Source: the human T2T-CHM13v2.0 reference genome, Homo sapiens. Taken from it: a DNA stretch of 64,000 nucleotides. The notes beneath the pieces are model-generated. The model saw nothing but the letters and a program-made list of their open reading frames with translations, searched no databases and was not told the DNA's origin. This document shows positions 3,494 to 50,543 of this stretch, in pieces. Numbering within the stretch: position 1 is the first letter of the stretch; every line of letters starts with the position of its first letter. The DNA is taken from the NCBI RefSeq assembly GCF_009914755.1, contig NC_060945.1, one strand, 5' to 3'. Both the position numbers and the translations under genes were made by a program.

Positions 3494-3914
3494 TGTTAAA
3501 GCAAATTAAAGTAGAGACCAGGCCTGAAGAATCTCTAAGCAGACAAAGCCACCTAGACATAAGGAACCTTAACATTGTTTAATTTACAAACATAAGCAAA
3601 ACTTAATTTGAGCTACTTATTGTTATTGCCTATATTAAAGAAAAAAACTTAAGGCTAACCAGGCAGACTTTGTCAACTAATATATAGCTTTATAACTAGA
3701 AACTTTGCAGCAGAATAGATCATATAAAGCAACGTATAACTGCAAACAATCAAATTTTTTTCTGCTTTACTTTCATGTTCATAAGCCCTCTGCTTATATT
3801 CCCTAGGCAAAGCCCCCAATCCACTTCTGGTATGGAGCTGCCAGATTGATAAGTCACTGTTTGTTCAAATAAAATCTTCAAAAATTTTATTATGCCTCAG
3901 TTTACCTTTTAAAA
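3494..3914 (+). mobile_element. MER4-group ERV1 solo LTR (LTR54-like; family tentative)
   Basis: TGTTAAA start and AATAAA near the 3' end; colinear with the opposite-strand copy at 41104-42055 (shared GAGACCAGGCCTGA and AAACATAAGCAAAACTTAA). Confidence 0.7.
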
Positions 3915-17072: not shown

Positions 17073-18050
17073 AATCAACAAATGTAAATTCTTGTAATTT
17101 CAAATCTAATAAAATTGATCAACTTGTGACAAAATTGATGAATAGATACAATTAGGAGTTGAAAAGAAGATAAAATTCAATATGTAGTAAAAATATTAAA
17201 ATGTGATAGAAAATTATACTCTCAAATAAGAAAATGTTCTTTTAAATTGAAATTTAACTAGAAAAAAATGTCCATGCCTAACTAAAAATAGGTAATATGA
17301 GTAGTCTCACATTATCAAATAACAAAATCAATACTTAAATAATAACCAAACAGTTATCATCATTCCCGAATCATTTTAATTTGAATTCTTTGCAACATTT
17401 GTGGAGTAAATAATTCTAGCCTTAAAACAAGATTAAACAAGAACAACAAATCTCTTCAAATTTATGAATCTTATATAAATTTGATACAAAAACTGTAGGA
17501 GAATGAGAAACTACAAATTAATGCACTCATAACTATAAATGAAATTTAACATTAATATTAAAATACTAAATCCAACAGTGGTTTAAAAATATAATCCTCC
17601 CCCAAAATTCAAAATCGAATGAACATTTGAAAATCCACCGATGTAAGTGTCTGGATTAGAAGATTAAAGAAAATCAGCATGTTTATTTCAATGGATTTAA
17701 AATAATTATTAGATTATGTTCAATACCAGTGCATGATCCAATTGAAAAGAATCTTAAATAGAATGACACAAGTAATTTCCTTAGTTTATAAAAACTTGCA
17801 ATAATAATTCCATTTAATAGTAAATTTTAAGAGCTTTTCCTTCGAAATCAAAAGCAAGTAAAATATTTTCACCATATCTCTTCAATTCAACATTCAGTGC
17901 ATAAATAAACAAATAAGCCAAAATTAAGTTGACATGATTGGAAAAAAAAGAAACAAGATAGTTAGCTTTTGCAAAGTGAGGACAAGTTTATGTACATAGA
18001 CAACCTGGGAGGATCTACAGTCAGATAATTAGAATTGTAAGGTTGCTGGC
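16330..18050 (+). mobile_element. Highly diverged L1M ORF2 remnant
   Basis: A-rich + strand with L1 ORF2-like segments (GATTTGAACAACAC...CTTGACCTAATT; CTTCAATTCAACAT); no open frame. Confidence 0.65.
17025..17069. repeat. (AC)22 microsatellite
   Basis: Uninterrupted AC run. Confidence 0.98.
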
Positions 18051-18270
18051 TGGATTAGTCAGGTTAGCAAGAATACAATATAGTAATTAAGAAATAAACA
18101 CAACCTCTGGTTTGATTCACGCACACATTTATTCTTGCATATACCATGTCTGATCTTGGCACAAGAAACTCTCCATAGTGTGTCCTACATGCAGTGATTC
18201 AGTGATCCAGGCTGATCCAATCTCATAATACTGCTAACTCCACACCAGGCCTCTGCATCTCTCAAGCAGG
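18051..18270 (-). mobile_element. Old MLT1 (K/L-like) LTR fragment
   Basis: ATTAGTCAGG start and CAGTGATTCAGTGATCCAGGCTGA motif. Confidence 0.5.
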
Positions 18271-18279
18271 GTAGGCAAT

Positions 18280-18641
18280 TGCCTTCGTCCCTCTGTGCTG
18301 CTATAACAGAATAGCACAGACTGAGTAAATTATAAAAAAGAGAAATTTATTTTCTCACAGTTCTGGAGGCTGAGAAGTTCAATATCAAGGTGCAAGCATT
18401 AGTGTCTGGTAAGGGCTTGTTCCATCGATGGCATCCTCTCACAGTGACATCCTCCCATGGCAGAAGACACAAGTGCAAAAAGGGGCAAACTCTTGCTGAA
18501 GCCTCTTTTTTATTAATCCATTCATGAGGACAGAGCACCATGACTTCATCACTTCCCAGAAGGCCCTCACCTCTTAATCTCATCACAATGGAGATTAAGT
18601 TTCAACATGAATTTTGTAGAGGATGCATTCAACCCGTAACA
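18280..18641 (-). mobile_element. MaLR LTR (MSTC/MSTD/MLT1A-like)
   Basis: GCTGCTATAACAGAATA...TTCTCACAGTTCTGGAGGCTGAGAAG...AAGTTTCAACATGAATTTTG. Confidence 0.85.
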
Positions 18642-19081
18642 GCAATTATGTTCACACATTAATATAAAAACAAAGATCTATCTTTATAAAATGTTAAACA
18701 TTTATTTTGCATTCCAAATTCCCAGATCCTAGAGTTAAAATCATTATGAAGAAGTTTTTGAGCCTCTATTATATGGCTGTAACATTTACAAACCTCCAAA
18801 TATTTCAAAGCCACTGTTTTGGTATTGATTAAATGAGAATAAAATGTGTTATGAGCTCACCTCAATTGCCCTGTCATATAGTATTTTATCCCATTTTTAT
18901 CTCTCTCTCTTCCTCATGAAGCTTTTAGAGCAATAAAACAGTATAATATATGCAGGAATATTTTTTATGTTATAAAGATATACACAGATGTAACAGAAGG
19001 ATATACAAGATACGTTCCTAAAAATTTCAGAAATACAAACATCTATGATTGAATCAATGATTCCCTGGTATTAGCAAAATT

Positions 19082-19884
19082 GTAATGGAGAAAAAATATA
19101 GACAATGTATAGGGTAAGATACATAATAATAAATTCTCCTGTTTTGAGAGCCCCCTCCTGCAACTAAATAGGGGTTCTAGTACCAAAGTAGCTGGCAACC
19201 CTGCCCTAAGAGGATATACAGGGAGTTGGATGTGAGTGTTTACAGTGTGCCTCTCACAGGACATTATTTTAGCTGGTGGGTGACCTAATACCTAGTTATT
19301 TGACCCATGACCAGGGGGCTTTTCACACGGGAAACTTGTTTGTACTGACAGTGCCCTTGTGGCTCTTGTCTGATCCATGCCCAGCTTATACCTACCTTAC
19401 CATCACTCTGGTTCCAGGACCTACAGATTTCCCTAATTTTTCAGATGGAAGGTATAAATTCAGTACACCACCACTATAGAAAAAAGCGCAATGACTTTTA
19501 CTTACATATCCTGAGCAGGGAGGGCACAAGGAGTCCAGAGGGTAATTCTCCATTCCCAGGTCACAGGAAGCAGGAATGGAGGGTCAGGTGGACAGAGAGA
19601 GAATATTTTGGCAGTTAGCAGTATGCATAAGGAAATAGGGTGTGGGGCACTTTAAGTTCACAAACAAGTGCCTGGAGTGTCTGTTTAAAGAAAGGGGAAC
19701 CAGTCAGCTAGGTGAGAAAAATGCTGCTAAGTTCTTATCTCTAGCCACCGGCTTGAGCCATTTGGATGTGGTATAGAACTGAAAACTATGTCAGGGATGA
19801 CTGAGCCCTGCTTCTGGCGTTAGAAAGTTAAACCTGTGCTCAAAATAGAGGCCAAGCCAACATAAAATTATAAAAATGCACCAC
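19082..19884 (-). mobile_element. ERVL-type LTR (MER74/MER54/MER73 group; tentative)
   Basis: TG...CA bounded, GC-richer block with TGACCCATGACCAGGGG...CACACGGGAAACTTGTTT...GCCCTTGTGGCTCTTGTCTGA. Confidence 0.55.
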
Positions 19885-23312: not shown

Positions 23313-23620
<308 letters not shown>

Positions 23621-25459: not shown

Positions 25460-25983
<524 letters not shown>

Positions 25984-37641: not shown

Positions 37642-38576
37642 ATATCAGAATAGGTTAAATATCCAAAATTTCTGCAAATTGAAATACCAATTTCAAACTT
37701 TTTTTCACAAAAACACAAATTGTCATTAAATTTGGTGGCTGTTCATACTCACGGGAATAATCTGAACATAACACATTTTCCTGCATTGGCCATTTACCCA
37801 GAAGGCCTACATTTTTTTCCATCTCTCTCTTCAACTTATTTTTCTTAGCAGAAATTTTGATGTCTTAGAATCTACCAGGATTCTTACAGTTAGATAGTAA
37901 ATAATTTCATTCAAATTAATTAGAGATTTAAAATGAAGTTGCTGAATAAATATTTGAGAATATTTAATCAATAATATACTATTTTTAAACCATTCTTCTT
38001 TGCTTTTTCTCTCTCCCTCTCTCCTCTCTTTGAAAGTCATTTAACTATTACCTGTTGAAAGCCCTGCAGGTGACTCAGTATTACCCTCATTATTCATGGT
38101 AACAGGAGCAAGAAAACTAAAGGAGCTTTTGTTCCTAGGCAGTCAAAACAAGATAGGCCAACAATAGTTACAAAGCTATGAATTCAGTACTAATCAGAGA
38201 TTTGGAGGGTTTTTGTGAACCTGCTATTCTTCAGAAACCCTTAATTCTTTCAGTTTCTCCTTTCGCATACATTCTGTGTCTTCTGTCAAATGAAATGTAG
38301 CATCTCTGTACACAGAAAGTTTCTGAGCTAAGTATATGTAACACGAGTTTCCTTTCCAAGATTCAACACCTATGCATTGCAATCAAATCTCTTTTATACT
38401 GCATTGTATAAGCACATAAAGGCATCAGTTTAATAAATTAATTTTTATTGAGCCTCTGTTAGTAAAAAATTATGCAATTCAATGGTATAGTGCATTAAAA
38501 ATATATGAAGTGGTTTTATACTCTTTTCTGTGCAAAGGTGTTGAAAAAGTAACTATCCAAGGTTAATTACCGTCAG

Positions 38577-39865: not shown

Positions 39866-40766
39866 ATTCTTTCCTCCCTACTCTTGCACTCACACTTAAC
39901 ACAGAACTCTTCCATAACCAAATGTGTGTTGTTTGTTTTTTCCCTCACAACAATTTAATTCTCGAATTCTCTGCAGACCCCAGTTGGGTGCCCTGCAACT
40001 GAATGAATTCTGATGTTCACTGTAATTAGCACAAATCCCACAGGTTAAGGGCTCAGTCGCACAAACTGTCCACACATCCGAAGCCAACCGTAAGTCCCAG
40101 GTTTTTACTTGTACTTCTGACTTTCTGGCTATAAATTGGGATTTCCATGACCCCTTTCCTCAAGTTCAGTCATTTTCCAAAAGGGTTCACATGACTCAGG
40201 GAAACATTTTACCTATATTACTAGTTTATTATATATTAAAGGATATGATAGAGGTTACAGGTGAACAGCCAGATGAAGAGAGGGGCATCGGGTGAGGTCC
40301 AGAAGTTTCTTGAGTGCAAAAGCTTTTCTCACCACAAAGTTGAGGGGTGCCACACTCCCCATATGTGGATAAGTTCACGAAACTAGGAGATCTTCAAACC
40401 CCATAGTTTAGGGATTTTTTTAATGGAGGCTTCTTCACGTACACTCAATCTCCAGCCCCTCTTTCCTTCCCAGAGGATGAGAAATAGGGCTGAACATTCC
40501 AAACTTCTAATCATGACTTGGCCCCTCTGATGACCAGCTCCAATGCAGGAGCCCACCATGAGTTGCCCTATTAGAAGAAGAGATGCTCTTATCACCTAGA
40601 GAATTTATAAACACTAGGAGCTCTGTGCAAGGAACGGGGCTCAAAGATCAAATATTAGTAAAAATGACACATTTAGTACCCCCATTGCTCAGGACATTAT
40701 AAGGTTTTTAGAAGCTTTGTGACAGAAACTAGGGGCAGAGACCAAATATTTTTAAATTATGTCTCA
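39866..40766 (-). mobile_element. MER21B/C-type ERV LTR
   Basis: CCCACAGGTTAAGGGCTCAGTC; GAACAGCCAGATGAAGAG; GGGGCAGAGACCAAATAT end. Confidence 0.8.
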
Positions 40767-40799
40767 TATCTATATCTATATCTATGTCTTACACCCAAA

Positions 40800-41083
40800 T
40801 AGACATTGGTGTCACAAACTATCATATCTCTAATCTATTTATATTTTTAAAAATTATTTATTGTCCCACAAGCGGCCTTTCTCCCTGTCTTTTTCTCTAT
40901 TAAAATGGTGTATAAGCTACTCTTTTGGGTATTCACCTCCTCTTGTCATGCTCCCATGCATACAAAATTAAAAATTATACGTTTGTATGCCTTTTCTCCT
41001 GTCAGTCTGTCTCTTGTCACTTTATTTTTCAGATCCAGCAGGAGAACAGAAGAGGTACAGAGGGAAAGTTTTTCTCTCCTACA
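40800..41083 (+). mobile_element. MER34/MER39-like LTR 3' part
   Basis: TTTGTATGCCTTTTCTCCTGT...GAGGGAAAGTTTTTCTCTCCTACA end. Confidence 0.6.
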
Positions 41084-41269
41084 GGGCCAATACAATATGC
41101 TATTGTTAAAATTGTAAACTGAAGCATAATAATATTTTAAAGTGCTTATTTGAACAAACAACAATTTATGAATCCAGCAGCTCCAGAACAGAAGTGGTTC
41201 AGGGATTCCCTGGAGGAAGCATAAGGTATAGGCTTTTCTAGAGTGAATATGAAAGTAGTATAAAGAAAG

Positions 41270-41633
41270 GGATATGGTTTGGCTGTGTCCCCACCCACAT
41301 CTCATATTGAATTGTGATTTCCATAATCTCCACGTGTCATGTGAGGGACCCAGTGGGAGATCATTTAATCATGGGGGTGGGTTTTTCATGTGCTGTTCTT
41401 GTGAGAGTGAATAAGTTTCATGAGATCTGATGGTTTTGTAAAGAACAGTTCCCTTGCACATTCTCTCTTGCCTGCCACCATGTAAGACATGCCTTTGCTC
41501 TTTCTTTGACTTCTGCCATGATTTTGAGGCCTTCCCAGCCATACGGAACTGTAAGTCCATTAAACCTCTTTTTCTTTATAAATTACCCAGGCTCAGGTAT
41601 TTCTTCATAGCAGTATGAAAAGGGACTAATACA
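41270..41633 (+). mobile_element. THE1 (B/C-like) MaLR solo LTR
   Basis: GATATGGTTTGGCTGTGTCCCCACCC...GGACTAATACA; perfect TSD GAAAG. Confidence 0.93.
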
Positions 41634-41767
41634 GAAAGTGTATTTGATTAGTTACAGTTATAAGTTTTCTTATTTGGTCTATCCTGCTGGAAATATCTAG
41701 TCATATATTTAGAAGTTTGCTGGCTGCCTCTGATTTACTGAACTTAGGTGTTTATATATATATATAT

Positions 41768-42003
41768 AAACCAATTAGGCCTGATAAGTGACCTTAACCT
41801 TGCTGGATTTGAAAACATAAGCAAAACTTAACTTGAGTTATTTCTTGTAAATGTCTATATATATATAGACATTTGTTTATATATATATATAAAAATGTCT
41901 ATATATATATATATAGACATTTACAAGAAATAACTCAAGTTAAGTTTTGCTTATGTTTTCAAATCCAGCAAGGTTAAGGTCACTTATCAGGCCTAATTGG
42001 TTT
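41768..42003. repeat. Perfect inverted repeat, 100-bp arms (41768-41867 / 41904-42003)
   Basis: Base-by-base reverse-complement match; the 36-bp spacer is itself largely palindromic. Confidence 0.97.
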
Positions 42004-42908
42004 TGTTTGCTCTCAGGGATTACTCAGGCCTGGTCTCCATTTTAATTTACTAATACTATCTCAAGCTAGATCTAGAGCAGTGGTTCTCAAAGCATAGTCC
42101 AAAGGCTTCCACAAAAAAGCCATACAATGTTTAGAATCCCAAATATTTTTGACCCCAGTTTATAGCAATAGAGAATGAAGACTTTGAATTGGCATCCTTA
42201 GGAAAATATACACATGGTTAAACAAGTTTTGGTAATGTTCCGGTAAAGATATATTAAGGATATTGCTTTTCCGCTCAAATCCATTGTTACAGATGTCCTC
42301 AAGGGACATCTATTACACTGAAAGAGAGGGACCTGGCTAGTAGACAAAGGCCATATATGTTTAGACTTAAAAATTATGTTAAGTATAGAATAAGTGTTGC
42401 TCCTTAAACTTGGAATTTATAATAAGCCAGCTGATAATTATCTGATTAGGTTGATGAAAGAGTTGGATTGCCAAAAAAGCCACAAGTCTACACTTTGAAA
42501 GTCTGTGACTGGTAAATCTGCAAATTAAGACTTGAACCTTTAAAAATATCGATTTTATTTTATGGTTTATAATCTTTTGCCAGTAATTTGGAAAGTATAA
42601 TGAAATCTTCAATTTCCTAAAGAAATATAATTTATCAAATTTACTCAGGTAGTAATAGAAAATCTAAAATCATCTAAAATAATTAAATAAAATTAATCAA
42701 CATTAAATATTTACCTCCCCTCCTCAAATTCCACATGCAAACAAAACTATCTGGGCCTAGATGGGTTAGCATATTATCTAAAACAAATACTTAGATATTT
42801 TCAAACTAACATACATTCTGCCAGTGAGAAAATTTTCCTTCAATTTATTTGAGTTATAATCATAATATGAAAAATAGAAGGAGGGTGAAAAAGGAACACA
42901 GAAAATAA

Positions 42909-43213
<305 letters not shown>

Positions 43214-44125
43214 AATAATACAAATATTTTAAGTAAATTTTATCACGTCAAACCTAGTGTTGTATATAAAAAAATACACAAATAAGTTTACTTCAGAATA
43301 GAAAAGCAAAGATATCATTGGAAATTTCTTAATATATTATACATAATTAGATTTAAGGTTTAGGCTTTGAGAAATATATTTGATAATATTCAATATTCTC
43401 CCATAATAAAATTTCTTGTCACTCTAGCACTAGGAAGAAATTTTATTAGCCTGCTAAATGTTGTGCACCAGAGAAAATATAGCTAGAATCATAAAGGTAA
43501 AAAGCCAGAAATTTTCATTAAAAAATCAGAAAAAAACAAGCAATTCCACTGTCAAGTTTATAAACTGCAGTTTCTATTGCACACGTACACAGAGTATGTT
43601 AAAATATTTATAGTAGAATCTCTTATAAGAGTAAACCATTGGATAAGACATGTCTGCCAAAACATTAACTGACAATAGACTCCCCTTCCCTCAAAAGTAT
43701 ATACATTCATTCCTTATATTACCATACAAGATTCTTATAAACATAACATTGAGTCAAACAATTTAAGCTTCAGACAGATACCTACAATTTAAACTCATAA
43801 AAAACTAGCATATGTGGTGTTAATGATGAATACATATGTAGTAAAAATACCCCAAAACTGCATAAGAATAATCAAAACTAAATACAGTAGTTACTTACCT
43901 CTGGGGAAGGAAGGGTAAAGTAAATACACCCAGGGATGTGGAGGGTGGTACCTATACCCTACTCAGCAAATTTTATTTTTTAAGTTGTATTGTTGGTTCA
44001 TAATTAATTATTATGCCATTCTTTACTGTTTCCTGTATTTTATAAATATTTAGTAATTCACTCTTAAAAATGAAGAGTGAACAGTTTTGATAGTTTTTAG
44101 TTCTGTGATGTTATTTCAAAAAACT

Positions 44126-44208
44126 ACATATACATACATGTAGATTTATGGTAATAAAATGCACAAATCTACACGTATGTGTATGTTTATGGTAATAAAA
44201 TGCACAAA
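44126..44208. repeat. Overlapping 22-bp inverted repeat and 41-bp-period direct repeat
   Basis: Arms 44126-44147 and 44165-44186 match 20/22; TTTATGGTAATAAAATGCACAAA at 44145 and 44186. Confidence 0.9.
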
Positions 44209-45449
44209 GCTACATGTGTGTATATGTATGTGCATGTGTATGTATATGTGTGTATATAGATACAGATATTCCACAGAGGTAGTACACAGAAACTGAAAGT
44301 GGTCCACAAATGACAAAAATTGTTAAAAAGGTATAGAAGAAATACATTATATGGAAAAATGAATAAATGTTTTTGAGATTACGTATGGACAAAAAGCTAA
44401 AGAGCATATGCTATAAATATATACAAAAGTTTAACATGTAACTTGTATGCTAAGAATTCATTTGGTTATTTCCAGATCATTTACAAAACTTTGAAGAACA
44501 GAACTGTTGCTATGGAGATTTTGTTTAATAGTCATCAAACTAAAGGCTACAAAAGCTAAAAATGCATTCATAAGAACATAATGCTCATGTTTATATTTTG
44601 AAGATCTATAGCGTGAAGCACATGTTCAGGTATTGCCAAATTTTGAAGCAAAGTTTCTAATCCTACTTAACTTAAAATTATTCTGCTATTATTTTAGATT
44701 AATTTATATTTTACTCCTATTGATCTGTATTTATATTGACAAGAGATCAAACATTATATACCATCATTGTGGGTAGTAGCTGGGGAAAAAGTCCTCATGA
44801 ATTATCTGCAAGTCTTAGGAAGAACACATTCTGAATCCTGCAGTTTTGTTCAGAGCTATCTCAGAGGTCCCTGCATATAAAAAGGAATTTTCAGAGCAAC
44901 AATTTTGGTTTTTTTCTTCCTAACAATTTGGCTTGGGTTCATAACTTGCTTATAGGGATTCACAGATTTTTTAGCATCCAAATTTGCAAAATTACCACAT
45001 TTCATACATATTGCCCACCTAAGAAAGTCTGTTCCTCTTCAATCTGGCTTGCTCATCTGTGATCTGACAGATGGATTCTACCCACAGGCAAAAGAAAACC
45101 TTATTTTAAAAATAAAAATTAATTACATCAAACTTAAAATCTCACATCGAGTTAGAAAGAATTTTTATTAAATAAAATTGTAGTGGAGTACTGGCAGCAT
45201 TGTTTTATATCCATTTTCATCTGTACACAAAGTATTTTTTTTTAATTGGTGAGGTCTAGCTAGTGCAGGTATTATTTATCTAAATTTGGTAGCGCAGTCA
45301 GATTGCAACAGAATGATGTGGCGACATTGTGATTTCTTATAAATGTCTATCTTTTCCCTCTTCCCGGCTAATAAGATGCAATGCTCTTGTTTGAAGAAAC
45401 CAAGATCCCAGCCACAAACAAGAGATAGTTATTGAACTAATCCAAAAGT

Positions 45450-48248: not shown

Positions 48249-50183
48249 TATATTATATTATATATTATATATAAAATATATAAATATGTATTATATTACA
48301 TATTATATACAAAACATATAAATATATATTACATATTATATAACATATATAAATATATATTACACATTATATATAACATATATAAATATATTACTTATTA
48401 TATATATTATATATAATATAATATATATAATATATAATATATTTATATATGTTATACATAATATATATTATATATTATATAATATATAACATATTATATA
48501 ATGTTTTATATATAATGTATTATATAATATTTTATATAATATATTATATATAAAATATTATATAATACATTATATATTATATGTAAAATATTATATAATA
48601 CATTATATATTATATGTAAAATATTATATAATACATTATATATTCTTATATATATATTATATATATATAAAATATATAATATAAATATTTAATATAAAAT
48701 ATATAATATATATTATATGTAAAATATAAAATATATAATATATATTATACATTATATGTAAAATATATAATATATGTAAAATATATAAATATATATTATA
48801 TTAAATATTATATGTAAAATATATAAGTATATAATATATCATATATTATATGTAAAATATATAAATATATATTATATTATATATTATGTGTAAAATATAT
48901 AAATATCTGTTATATTATATATTATATGTAAAATATATAAATATATTTTATATATTTGTATATTTATATTTATAAATAAATATATCTTTATATTTGTAAT
49001 ATATAAAATTATATATAATTATAATATATAAAATATATAAAATATATTTAAAAATTATATATTTATATTCATAAATAAATATAAAATATATTATATATAT
49101 TATATAATATATATAAAATATATTATATATATTATATAATATATATAAAATATATTATATATATTATATAATATATATAAAATATATTATATATATTATA
49201 TAATATATATAAAATATATTATATATATTATATAATATATATAAAATATATTATATTATATATTATATAATATATATAAAATATATTATATTATATATTA
49301 TATAATATATATAAAATATATTATATTATATATTATATAATATATATAAAATATATTATATTATATATTATATAATATATATAAAATATATTATATTATA
49401 TATAATATAATATATATAAAATATATTATATTATATATAATATAATATATATAAAATATATTATATTATATATAATATAATATATATAAAATATATTATA
49501 TTATATATAATATAATATATATAAAATATATTATATATATTTTATATAATATATATAAATATATAGTATATTATATATCATATATTATATAAAATATATT
49601 TATATAATATATGATATAATATAAATTTATATATCAATATATATCTTATATATTATATATTATATATTTTATATTTTATATGTATTATATAATATATAAA
49701 TATTTACAGTATATATTATATTAATGTAATTATATAAAAAATATTCACATTATATATTATATTATATATTAACATATAAAAATATATACTGTATTATATA
49801 TTAACATACAATAATATATACTGTATTATATATTAATATATAATAATATATACTGTGTTTATATTAATATATAATAATATATACTGTGTTTATATTAATA
49901 TATAATAATATATATTGTATTATATATTAATATGTAATAATATATACTGTATTATATATTAATATGTAATAATATATTACTATATATGGTATTATATATT
50001 AATATATAATAATATATTACTATATATGATATTACATATTAATATATAATAATATACTAATATATAATATATAAATATTTATATAATACTAAAATATATT
50101 ATATATTATATTTTATATGTAATATATATTTTATATATAATATATAATTTGTATGTATAATATATATTTATATATATATATAT
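48249..50183. repeat. ~1.9-kb AT-rich compound minisatellite / low-complexity tract
   Basis: Almost entirely A/T; includes the ordered 32/35-bp array at 49081-49520 and a ~32-bp CTGT-marked array at about 49780-49960. Confidence 0.97.
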
Positions 50184-50543
50184 AGTGAGAGAGAGAGAAG
50201 TATACCTAGATATGCAATGCTTCAGATTTGCTTAAACTGTATGTTCTCTAGTATTTATATTAAGTCATATATTGGAAAGTGTAAAATATTCCAACATTTC
50301 AATTCAAAACTTTCAAAAAATGTACTATCTGCTGCAGGAAAGTTACCATTTAAACATTTTGTGGGGCAAAACTTTCTCATACATAACCCCTATCCTGAAA
50401 AAGTTTATAAAATGGAAGGAAAAAAAAAAACCATGTAGAGAAAGTTTAAATTGTTCAAAATTATTTTATTACTTTTCTATCATATGTTGATTAAATATAG
50501 AAAATAATATATTATATGCTATATCCAAATAAGATAATGTGGT

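What the first reader, a model, noticed from the sequence alone, without database searches (positions are those of the whole stretch)
41749..42003. Perfect 100-bp-arm inverted duplication with nested palindromes inside an old LTR
Seen: 41768-41867 is the exact reverse complement of 41904-42003, with 88 bp of non-TA sequence and no mismatch. Pairing extends a further 7 bp past a 4-nt TA bulge. The inverted copy is flanked by a direct duplication, TGTTT(AT)7AAA (41749-41770) and TGTTT(AT)6AAA (41874-41893), with AAA microhomology at the left junction. Smaller perfect palindromes are nested in it: AAATGTC(TA)8GACATTT (41893-41922) and GTTT(AT)7AAAC (41750-41771). The same-family LTR at 3494-3914 has this segment once, with no TA array, so the left arm is the derived copy. 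Inference: serial fold-back or template switching (FoSTeS/MMBIR-like) seeded by a TA repeat. Zero arm divergence in a diverged LTR implies a recent origin or arm-to-arm conversion. It should form a cruciform in DNA or a ~110-bp hairpin in RNA. This is the strongest unexplained structure in the window.
Basis: partly seen in the sequence, partly recalled or inferred. Interest (0 to 1): 0.72.

Follow-up and report, generated by a model that had tools for sequence, protein, structure and literature searches.

The report
Inverted self-copy inside an old LTR
A 125-base stretch inside an ancient retroviral LTR on chromosome 21 is a back-to-front copy of its neighbouring DNA, made when DNA copying switched strands at a TA repeat; it is a real but ordinary mutational scar.

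Summary
Window 41768-41867 is the exact reverse complement of 41904-42003. With one 4-base TA gap the match grows to 107 vs 111 bases with 0 substitutions. As a single strand it folds at -120 kcal/mol (DNA, z -31).

The host is a real solo LTR, 41104-42055 on the minus strand. It has a perfect 4-bp target duplication and carries a nested, younger MaLR-type LTR.
- Its ~420-bp family has TG..CA ends, 4-bp duplications, and conserved TATA and poly(A) signals.
- The family has its own internal region.
- It is about 16% from its founder, roughly 70-105 My old.
- This points to class I (ERV1-type). No curated family name could be obtained.

The right arm is native and the left arm is derived. None of 30 aligned copies, and none of 38 other scored places, has the TA array or a second arm.

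One switch-and-return template switch explains the whole 125-nt insertion. The insertion is an inverted copy plus a 20-22-nt direct duplication, with 3-nt and 1-nt microhomologies.

Zero arm differences only bound the event to the last ~13% of the LTR's life. The mechanism is known, and the copied length is near the published maximum. No function is indicated.

The parts
41104..42055 (-). Host solo LTR of an old ~420-bp family (class I / ERV1-type by target-site duplication). It now spans 952 bp because it holds a nested LTR and the inverted duplication.
   Evidence: Three pieces compared apart with 30 family copies hit 30, 28 and 29 of the 30 copies, in collinear order. Ends were read.
41100..41103 (.). 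Left copy of the host LTR's 4-bp target-site duplication (CTAT)
   Evidence: it matches 42056-42059
42056..42059 (.). Right copy of the host LTR's 4-bp target-site duplication (CTAT)
41270..41633 (+). Nested younger solo LTR of a high-copy MaLR-type family. The name THE1/MST-like is recalled, not from a tool. It is flanked by the 5-bp duplication GAAAG (41265-41269 and 41634-41638).
   Evidence: The family shows 5-bp duplications, 9 of 30 exact against a null of 0.07.
41893..42003 (-). Native arm: the LTR's own sequence in LTR orientation, including the 30-nt perfect palindrome 41893-41922. It is the donor of the inverted copy.
41768..41874 (+). Derived arm: the inverted copy of 41893-42003, with 0 substitutions and two TA units fewer
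   Evidence: It is absent from 30 of 30 family copies and from 38 of 38 other scored places.
41749..41770 (+). First copy of the direct duplication, TGTTT(AT)7AAA. Its last 3 bases overlap the derived arm (microhomology).
   Evidence: D1
41874..41893 (+). Second copy of the direct duplication, TGTTT(AT)6AAA. Its first base overlaps the derived arm.
   Evidence: D1. The start-to-start offset is 125 nt.
41875..41892 (.). 18-nt AT-only centre between the gapped arms. It is itself nearly self-complementary and forms the hairpin tip.
   Evidence: The central 20 bp contain 0 G or C.
3494..3914 (+). Second, uninterrupted solo LTR of the same family in the window, used as comparator

Best explanation
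The structure is a mutational scar, not a functional element.

**Proposed history**
1. A class I-type retrovirus left a solo LTR here roughly 70-105 My ago.
2. In the LTR's U3 part, a short TATA-like stretch grew into a TA microsatellite.
3. A 7-nt inverted copy beside it made a 30-nt perfect palindrome (41893-41922).
4. Later, DNA synthesis running through the TA tract left its template. The 3' end paired through 3 bases (AAA/TTT) with the same-sense strand about 110 nt away, or equivalently snapped back on itself.
5. Synthesis then copied that stretch backwards up to the point of departure.
6. It returned to the original template 20-22 nt upstream of where it had left, through a 1-base overlap.

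**Result**
A 125-nt insertion made of an inverted copy of 41893-42003 plus a direct duplication of TGTTT(AT)nAAA. In four-point terms the order of the switch points is 4 < 1 ~ 3 < 2. TA-unit counts have since slipped (7 vs 6, and 6 vs 8).

**Shown:** the sequence relations, which arm is native, and that the event is specific to this locus.
**Inferred:** the order of events, that the switch happened at a replication fork, and the dates.
For: **The whole of 41749-42003 reduces to two relations with zero substitutions.**
- An inverted match of 107 vs 111 nt, with one TA gap.
- A direct match of 22 vs 20 nt, with one AT gap.
- The start-to-start offset is 125 nt.

**The right arm is native.**
- It is contiguous and collinear with the family in LTR orientation.

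**The left arm is derived and the donor is local.**
- 30 of 30 aligned copies read straight through the junction, with no TA array of 4 or more units and no second arm.
- 38 of 38 other scored places match one arm's worth only (39 of 217 first-look candidates were scored).
- The arms are 100% alike but only 83-91% like any other copy.

**Published model and ranges.**
- The four-point model covers outcomes with both inverted and direct repeats (PMC5453318, section 4 read whole).
- 'Four before one' events, an AT-rich context, and copied fragments up to 128 nt (median 12) are reported for 1503 gold-standard hominid events (PMC7954356, passages).
- Template switching is reported to make perfect hairpins in one step, with over 6,000 in primates (PMC10710096, abstract and passages).
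Against: - No orthologous outgroup could be read. The 'before' state is inferred from paralogous LTR copies about 25% apart, not from an ancestor of this locus.
- The four-point solution is not unique. The mirror-image description (snap-back of the opposite nascent strand) fits equally well.
- It is unknown whether the small palindrome preceded the large event or arose in the same multi-switch episode.
- One junction has only 1 base of overlap.
- The copied length (107-111 nt) is about nine times the published median.
- Sequence alone cannot separate fork switching from repair synthesis.
- Reads were not available, so the assembly at this point is taken on trust.
Confidence: 0.78

Rival explanations
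1. The outcome is the same, but it was made during repair of a double-strand break in the TA tract. A resected 3' end snapped back on its own strand through TA self-pairing, was extended about 110 nt, and was then joined to the other end by microhomology (polymerase-theta-type templated insertion, or MMBIR).
For: The junctions show microhomologies of 3 nt and 1 nt. The 18-nt AT-only centre is self-complementary. From recollection, not from a call: long TA tracts are known break and stall sites, and snap-back templated insertions are a known signature of that repair route.
Against: The 20-22-nt direct duplication flanking the insert follows naturally from a return upstream of the departure point on an intact template. 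It needs an extra assumption (both ends keeping the same stretch) in an end-joining model. From recollection, templated insertions of that repair route are usually much shorter.
Confidence: 0.15
2. The inverted duplication is old, and the arms have been kept identical by arm-to-arm conversion, meaning repeated template switching or gene conversion within the hairpin.
For: Conversion of near-perfect to perfect inverted repeats is the classical template-switch outcome (PMC5453318, passages). Zero substitutions were found in ~95 non-TA positions, where 21-23 differences would be expected over the LTR's life.
Against: The two features that differ between the arms, TA-unit numbers and the small central asymmetry, have not been homogenised. 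A recent origin explains zero differences with no added process.
Confidence: 0.07
3. The left arm is an assembly or sequencing artefact: a fold-back chimera.
For: Palindromes are hard to clone and sequence (PMC7999016, passages).
Against: The structure is not a simple fold-back. It has a direct duplication, unequal TA tracts (6, 6, 7 and 8 units) and defined microhomology junctions. At 236 bp it lies well inside single long reads (inference).
Confidence: 0.03
4. The arms come from two separate insertions, either two LTR copies head to head or a palindromic MITE-like transposon.
For: None beyond the inverted symmetry itself.
Against: Family copies are about 75% identical to each other, whereas the arms are 100% identical. 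The second arm covers only about 100 of the 420 bp of the LTR. One perfect 4-bp duplication (CTAT) brackets the whole 41104-42055 span. No other place in the genome carries both arms.
Confidence: 0.01

Closest known systems
Short-range template-switch mutations (four-point model; Loytynoja & Goldman 2017, PMC5453318; Walker et al. 2021, PMC7954356)
   Same: A nearby stretch is copied in reverse complement and synthesis then returns to the original template. The result is a perfect inverted repeat, here together with a direct repeat ('4 before 1'). The context is AT-rich.
   Different: The copied fragment is 107-111 nt, against a published median of 12 and a maximum of 128. The donor lies in a transposable element, and both published scans filtered out repeat-masked donors. 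The ancestral state here comes from paralogues, not from an outgroup genome.
Palindromic AT-rich repeats (PATRR11, 17, 22, 8) at recurrent translocation breakpoints
   Same: It is a near-perfect palindrome with no true spacer. Its centre is AT-only (0 G/C in the central 20 bp). Its 236-bp size falls between PATRR17 (~190 bp) and PATRR11 (~450 bp).
   Different: Overall AT content is 73%, against more than 90% stated for PATRR11/22. The arms are ordinary LTR sequence. The centre has a 4-nt bulge and a small asymmetry. No translocation or size polymorphism is known to me at this site, and none could be looked for.
Hairpins and young miRNA genes born by template switching (Monttinen et al. 2023, PMC10710096)
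   Same: A single event gives a perfectly paired stem. The event sits next to or inside an older transposable element.
   Different: The stem is about 110 bp, not about 35 bp. No annotated transcript covers it (RefSeq table). Rfam gives only sub-threshold matches to AT-hairpin miRNA models; the best is 42.3 bits against a gathering score of 101.
FoSTeS / MMBIR complex rearrangements
   Same: Both involve microhomology at the junctions and switching of the nascent strand between templates.
   Different: Those models describe long-range switching (kb to Mb) that gives copy-number variants. Here every template lies within 255 bp, and one switch-and-return suffices.
Class I (ERV1-type) solo LTRs of eutherian age
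   Same: The family has TG..CA ends, 4-bp target duplications, a TATA box about 90 bp before an AATAAA, a length of about 420 bp and about 16% divergence.
   Different: No curated family name and no recognisable pol were obtained. The primer-binding-site test was stopped.

Membership tests
Short-range template-switch mutation (four-point model) | The inserted or replaced stretch is the reverse complement of sequence close by | tested here: met
   41768-41874 against the reverse complement of 41893-42003: 0 substitutions and one 4-nt TA gap
Short-range template-switch mutation (four-point model) | One switch-and-return (three fragments: L->1, 2->3 complemented, 4->R) explains all differences from the earlier state | tested here: inconclusive
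   All of 41749-42003 is covered by one inverted and one direct relation. However, the earlier state is inferred from 30 paralogous copies, not from an orthologue. The small palindrome needs a separate earlier step.
Short-range template-switch mutation (four-point model) | Direction fixed by an outgroup genome (ancestral vs derived) | not testable with these tools
PATRR | Nearly perfect palindrome of about 200-600 bp without a spacer | tested here: met
   236 bp with 118-nt arms, 94% complementary ungapped, 0 nt between the arms. Definition taken from passages.
PATRR | Very high AT content (more than 90% stated for PATRR11/22) | tested here: not met
   73.3% over the palindrome and 67% in the non-TA arm
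PATRR | AT-rich, symmetric centre (1-3 G/C in the central 20 bp) | tested here: inconclusive
   There are 0 G/C in the central 20 bp. Symmetry is broken by a 4-nt bulge and a 1-vs-2-nt asymmetry within 20 nt of the centre.
PATRR | Lies at breakpoints of constitutional translocations and shows size polymorphism in people | not testable with these tools
   No variant or breakpoint data were available. 'chromosome 21' occurs 0 times in the review PMC4940405.
Retroviral LTR, class I (ERV1-type) | Discrete element with TG..CA ends | tested here: met
   Conservation changes sharply at both ends. TG starts 19 of 30 copies and CA ends 15 of 30.
Retroviral LTR, class I (ERV1-type) | 4-bp target-site duplication (5 bp for ERVL/MaLR and 6 bp for ERVK; this rule is recalled) | tested here: met
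   At 4 bp: exact in 5 of 30 (null 0.10), and one mismatch or fewer in 15 of 30 (null 1.45). At 5, 6 and 8 bp there is no enrichment. The locus copy has a perfect CTAT. Control: the nested MaLR-type family gives 5 bp, in 21 of 30 against a null of 0.93.
Retroviral LTR, class I (ERV1-type) | Promoter and poly(A) signals in U3-R order | tested here: met
   TATAAA at positions 280-289 in 17 of 30 copies, and AATAAA at 370-379 in 19 of 30
Retroviral LTR, class I (ERV1-type) | Paired LTRs around a shared internal region | tested here: met
   Two full LTRs lie on the same strand 11.6 kb apart on chromosome 4. The flanks read CCTT/CCTC, a 3-of-4 match. The 1.2 kb next to the 5' LTR recurs at about 40 places, several beside family LTRs. 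About 5 kb is collinear among three copies.
Retroviral LTR, class I (ERV1-type) | Gamma/epsilon-type reverse transcriptase in the internal region | tested here: inconclusive
   0 of 30 open pieces (40 aa or longer) from 4 copies matched any retroviral Pfam family at E <= 0.1.
Known RNA families (Rfam 15) | Score at or above the family's gathering threshold | tested here: not met
   0 matches at gathering score in the whole window. In the palindrome there are only sub-threshold AT-hairpin miRNA models.

The most novel reading that the evidence does not exclude
The palindrome may be a human- or great-ape-lineage allele, possibly still polymorphic. It would then behave as an unrecognised small PATRR-like site on 21q21, with an AT-only centre prone to hairpin formation, fork stalling, central deletions or rare rearrangement. 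If transcribed, it would give a ~110-bp perfect double-stranded RNA, raw material for a new small-RNA locus. It would also show that large template switches inside transposable elements are missed by published scans, which filter out repeat-masked donors.
Probability: 0.1. Interest if true: 0.5.

Novelty: new member of a known kind. Interest (0 to 1): 0.3.

Why it matters
This is a clean, fully decodable example of how a TA microsatellite inside a dead retroviral LTR can seed a ~110-bp perfect hairpin in one step. The copied length is near the top of the published range for short-range template switches (maximum 128 nt). Published genome scans excluded repeat-masked donors, so events of this kind inside transposable elements may be under-counted. 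Long perfect inverted repeats are reported to be depleted and unstable in the human genome (PMC12019632, passage). Its persistence, age and population state would therefore be informative. No gene, transcript or known RNA family is involved, so no function is indicated.

Tried and rejected
**Explanations rejected**
- **Chance.** 0 of 200 shuffles fold as well.
- **Two independent insertions or a palindromic MITE.** The arms are 100% alike, against about 75% between family copies. One CTAT duplication brackets the whole LTR. No other locus has both arms.
- **The inverted arm is part of the family.** 30 of 30 aligned copies and 38 of 38 other scored places have one arm only. Only 39 of 217-220 first-look candidates are scored per search, so this is a sample.
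- **A known RNA gene.** 0 matches at gathering score. All 19 weak matches in 40500-43500 are below threshold. Thirteen of them are AT-hairpin miRNA models over the palindrome, and most of the rest are Alu-related.
- **PATRR membership.** The AT content fails.

**Naming the LTR family**
- The RefSeq soft-mask table does not cover the LTR. It masks only 9,374 of 64,000 bases, so it says nothing about family.
- A full-text search for a 17-base stretch of the arm found one 1989 paper on Fc-gamma-RII cDNAs. The passage is not in the held text.
- Flanks of 30 solo copies share no internal sequence. The only matches are Alu-like hits at varying offsets.
- An internal region was then found through a chromosome-4 LTR pair. 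None of 30 open pieces matched a retroviral Pfam family.
- Two papers on the origin of the NF1 palindrome (PMC1310899, PMC2818517) are not held. I know them only from reference lists.
- Supplementary tables of the template-switch papers, which list event coordinates, are closed. I cannot say whether this locus is already listed there.
- I did not sample the genome for the base rate of such palindromes. I relied on a published count of 718 near-perfect palindromes over 200 bp (PMC7680136, passage). That count uses a different definition, allowing at most 4 mismatches, which the ungapped arms here would not meet.

Full report
**1. The observation**

Window 41768-41867 is the exact reverse complement of 41904-42003, 100 of 100 bases. 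The match does not extend outward. Without gaps, 41768-42003 is a 236-bp palindrome centred at 41885/41886. Its arms are 118 nt long, 94% complementary, with nothing between them.

Allowing one gap, 41768-41874 (107 nt) matches the reverse complement of 41893-42003 (111 nt). There are 0 substitutions and a single 4-column TA gap. An 18-nt AT-only centre, 41875-41892, is left between the arms and is itself nearly self-complementary.

- the direct repeat 41749-41770 / 41874-41893, which differs by one AT unit;
- the nested perfect palindromes 41849-41874, 41893-41922 and 41750-41771.

As a single strand the region folds into one long hairpin:
- as DNA, -120 kcal/mol, against a shuffle mean of -19.6 (z -31.3, 0 of 200 shuffles as good);
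- as RNA, -173 kcal/mol (z -29.2).

**2. The host element: is it a real virus remnant?**

The comparator at 3494-3914 finds 40 matches in the reference genome. Of 220 first-look candidates, 39 were scored. Almost all are full length and 69-76% identical.

In an alignment of 30 fetched copies:
- conservation rises and falls within one column at both ends;
- lengths are 407-441 bp;
- 19 of 30 copies start with TG and 15 of 30 end with CA.

Target-site duplications are 4 bp:

| Length tested | Observed | Null expectation |
|---|---|---|
| 4 bp, exact | 5 of 30 | 0.10 |
| 4 bp, one mismatch or fewer | 15 of 30 | 1.45 |
| 5, 6, 8 bp | no enrichment | - |

(All.)

TATAAA is kept at positions 280-289 in 17 of 30 copies. 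AATAAA is kept at 370-379 in 19 of 30. That is a U3-R-U5 layout.

A 17-base stretch of the arm, allowing up to 2 mismatches, occurs 1793 times in the genome. A reversed control occurs 572 times. The family therefore has on the order of a thousand copies.

The family also has its own internal region:
- Two full LTRs lie on the same strand 11.6 kb apart on chromosome 4. Their outer flanks read CCTT and CCTC.
- The 1.2 kb next to the 5' LTR recurs at about 40 places, several of them beside family LTRs seen.
- About 5 kb is collinear among three copies.

So the remnant is a real retroviral LTR.

At this locus it runs from 41104 to 42055 on the minus strand. It has a perfect 4-bp duplication, CTAT, at 41100-41103 and 42056-42059.

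**3. Family and age**

By the recalled rule (4 bp for class I/ERV1, 5 bp for ERVL and MaLR, 6 bp for ERVK) the family is class I-type.

The test was controlled with the LTR nested in it (41270-41633, plus strand, flanked by GAAAG). That LTR belongs to a family with 8933 first-look candidates. It shows 5-bp duplications: 9 of 30 exact against a null of 0.07, and 21 of 30 with one mismatch or fewer against a null of 0.93. It shows no 4-bp or 6-bp signal. I recall its end motifs as THE1/MST-like (MaLR); no tool named it.

I could not get a curated name for the host family, for these reasons:
- no repeat library is on hand;
- the soft-mask table does not cover the LTR;
- print gave one unreadable hit;
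- 0 of 30 open pieces from four internal copies matched a retroviral Pfam family;

The family is not of the HML-2/LTR5 kind. The evidence is its 4-bp duplication, ~420-bp length and ~16% divergence.

For age, the mean pairwise K2P distance among the 30 copies is 0.315, or 0.157 per lineage. With recalled rates of 2.2 to 1.5 x 10^-9 per site per year this gives about 72-105 My. The sample is the 30 best matches to one copy, so it is biased towards similar copies.

The nested LTR is younger: 0.065 per lineage, and 0.093 for the window copy. This fits the nesting order.

**4. Which arm is native, and is the event local?**

In LTR orientation the right arm continues without a break from the LTR's 5' part (42004-42055). 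It aligns with every family copy in the same orientation. The LTR resumes left of 41749. The left arm has the opposite orientation, so it is the derived one.

All 30 aligned copies read straight through the junction. None has a TA array of four or more units, and none has a second arm.

The 236-bp palindrome, used as a query, finds itself plus 38 other places. Each of those matches one arm's worth on both strands at the same coordinates, at 83-91% identity. The donor was therefore local, and the event is specific to this locus within the sample scored.

**5. How it arose**

The stretch 41749-42003 reduces to two relations with no substitution:
- (i) 41768-41874 is the inverted copy of 41893-42003;
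- (ii) 41749-41770 is a direct copy of 41874-41893.

The first three bases of the inverted copy (AAA) overlap the end of direct copy 1. Its last base (T) overlaps the start of direct copy 2. These are microhomologies of 3 nt and 1 nt. The offset between the direct copies is 125 nt.

This is what a single switch-and-return gives in the four-point model:
1. synthesis leaves the template just after TGTTT(AT)nAAA;
2. it copies the next ~110 nt in reverse complement, back to the point of departure;
3. it resumes 20-22 nt upstream of that point.

The order of the switch points is 4 < 1 ~ 3 < 2. The model explicitly includes outcomes with both inverted and direct repeats (PMC5453318, section 4 read whole). 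'Four before one' events are described in PMC7954356 (passages).

The left small palindrome (41849-41874) is simply the inverted image of the right one (41893-41922). The right one must therefore have existed before the large event, or arisen in the same episode. It contains a 7-nt inverted copy next to the TA tract (chance about 6 x 10^-5 per position), which points to an earlier small switch.

TA-unit numbers (7 and 6 in the direct copies; 6 and 8 in the arms) differ by slippage.

Shown: the sequence relations. Inferred: the order of events, the fork context and the direction of synthesis. The mirror-image description fits equally well. Repair-linked snap-back synthesis gives the same product and cannot be excluded from sequence.

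**6. When**

The arms show 0 differences in about 95 non-TA positions. The arm part of the LTR has 0.119 substitutions per site per lineage, so 21-23 arm-to-arm differences would be expected over the LTR's whole life. Zero differences therefore place the event in the last 13-14% of that life at the 5% level (3% at even odds), unless the arms convert each other.

With recalled absolute rates, the 5% bound is about 7-34 My and the even-odds value about 2-8 My. 'Recent' is thus likely, but only loosely bounded. A great-ape or human-lineage origin is compatible and unproven.

**7. What it does**

Nothing indicates a function:
- No RefSeq gene or exon overlaps it. The nearest features are an annotated enhancer at 37877-38467 and LINC02573 at 17816-19639.
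- Rfam gives 0 matches at gathering score in the window.
- Over the palindrome there are only sub-threshold matches to AT-hairpin miRNA models. The best is mir-5014, at 42.3 bits against a threshold of 101.

The structure could form a hairpin on single-stranded DNA or in RNA. Extrusion as a cruciform is less sure. The palindrome is 73% AT overall with an AT-only centre. However, a 4-nt bulge and a small asymmetry lie close to the centre. Published work found that central symmetry and length decide extrusion, and that a ~190-bp PATRR hardly extruded at physiological salt (PMC1851657, passages).

**8. Comparison with what is known**

- It works like a short-range template-switch mutation. Its copied length is near the top of the published range (median 12, maximum 128 nt among 1503 events).
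- It resembles a PATRR in size, lack of spacer and AT centre. It fails the AT-content criterion, and nothing links it to translocations.
- It resembles template-switch-born miRNA hairpins, but the stem is three times longer and no transcript is known.
- A published catalogue counts 718 near-perfect palindromes over 200 bp in the reference, the longest ones AT-rich (PMC7680136, passages). Such objects are rare but not unique.

**9. Verdict**

The kind of event is known. I score interest at 0.3 and file it as a new member of a known kind.

Open points:
- ape and human-population state;
- the curated family name;
- the primer-binding site;
- whether the locus already appears in closed supplementary tables.

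Noticed in passing
window 48249-50184: A ~1.9-kb AT-only low-complexity array. Tandem Repeats Finder reports periods of 2, 7 and 19, and ~31-bp units are visible. It has long but imperfect inverted symmetry, for example 195-nt arms at 82% with no spacer. By size it is a larger potential hairpin or fragile AT-rich tract than the finding, though far less exact.
   Followed up: partly
window 41270-41633 (+), flanks 41265-41269 and 41634-41638: A solo LTR of a very high-copy family (8933 first-look candidates) is nested in the host LTR, with a GAAAG 5-bp duplication. Its family shows 5-bp duplications and about 6.5-9% divergence per lineage. The name THE1/MST-like (MaLR) is recalled only.
   Followed up: yes
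G000 chromosome 1, about 160.777-160.945 Mb (FCGR2A, LOC124905742, FCGR2C): Three copies of the host family's LTR motif and of its internal region sit about 81.6 kb apart inside the Fc-gamma-receptor II gene cluster, one per segmental-duplication unit. A 1989 paper on FcRII cDNAs holds the same 17-base string in its text, but the passage could not be read. Part of this element may therefore be in a transcript there.
   Followed up: partly
G000 chromosome 4, 174927921-174939945 (L061, L062, L063): Two full LTRs of the host family lie on the same strand 11.6 kb apart, with outer flanks CCTT and CCTC. This is a likely decayed provirus. It overlaps the lncRNA LOC105377535 at one end. Ten open pieces from its 5' part gave no retroviral Pfam match.
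   Followed up: partly
L064, L066, L067 and L061: the first ~25 bases after the 5' LTR: In three of the five junctions printed, a TGG-initial stretch follows the LTR end by about 3 bases, as expected of a primer-binding site. It reminded me of a leucine-tRNA site, which would sit oddly with a 4-bp duplication.
   Followed up: no
window 42078-42100: About 20 bp beyond the LTR's target duplication there is a stretch beginning cagtggttctcaaag. I recall this as the terminus of a MER5-type hAT element. It was not tested.
   Followed up: no
window 42898-43244 (-): A masked repeat with sub-threshold SRP-RNA and mir-1268 matches (68.9 bits against a threshold of 83). This is the usual picture of an Alu.
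   Followed up: no
window 23323-23617 and 25471-25765: A 295-nt inverted pair, 81% complementary and 1853 nt apart. Both arms lie in masked repeats of about 345 bp, so this is probably two Alu elements in opposite orientation.
   Followed up: no
window 44145-44227: A tandem duplication of a 41-bp unit: 2.0 copies, 90% matches.
   Followed up: no
whole window: The supplied soft-mask table covers only 9,374 of 64,000 bases and misses both copies of the ~420-bp LTR family. 'Unmasked' here therefore does not mean 'not a repeat'.
   Followed up: yes
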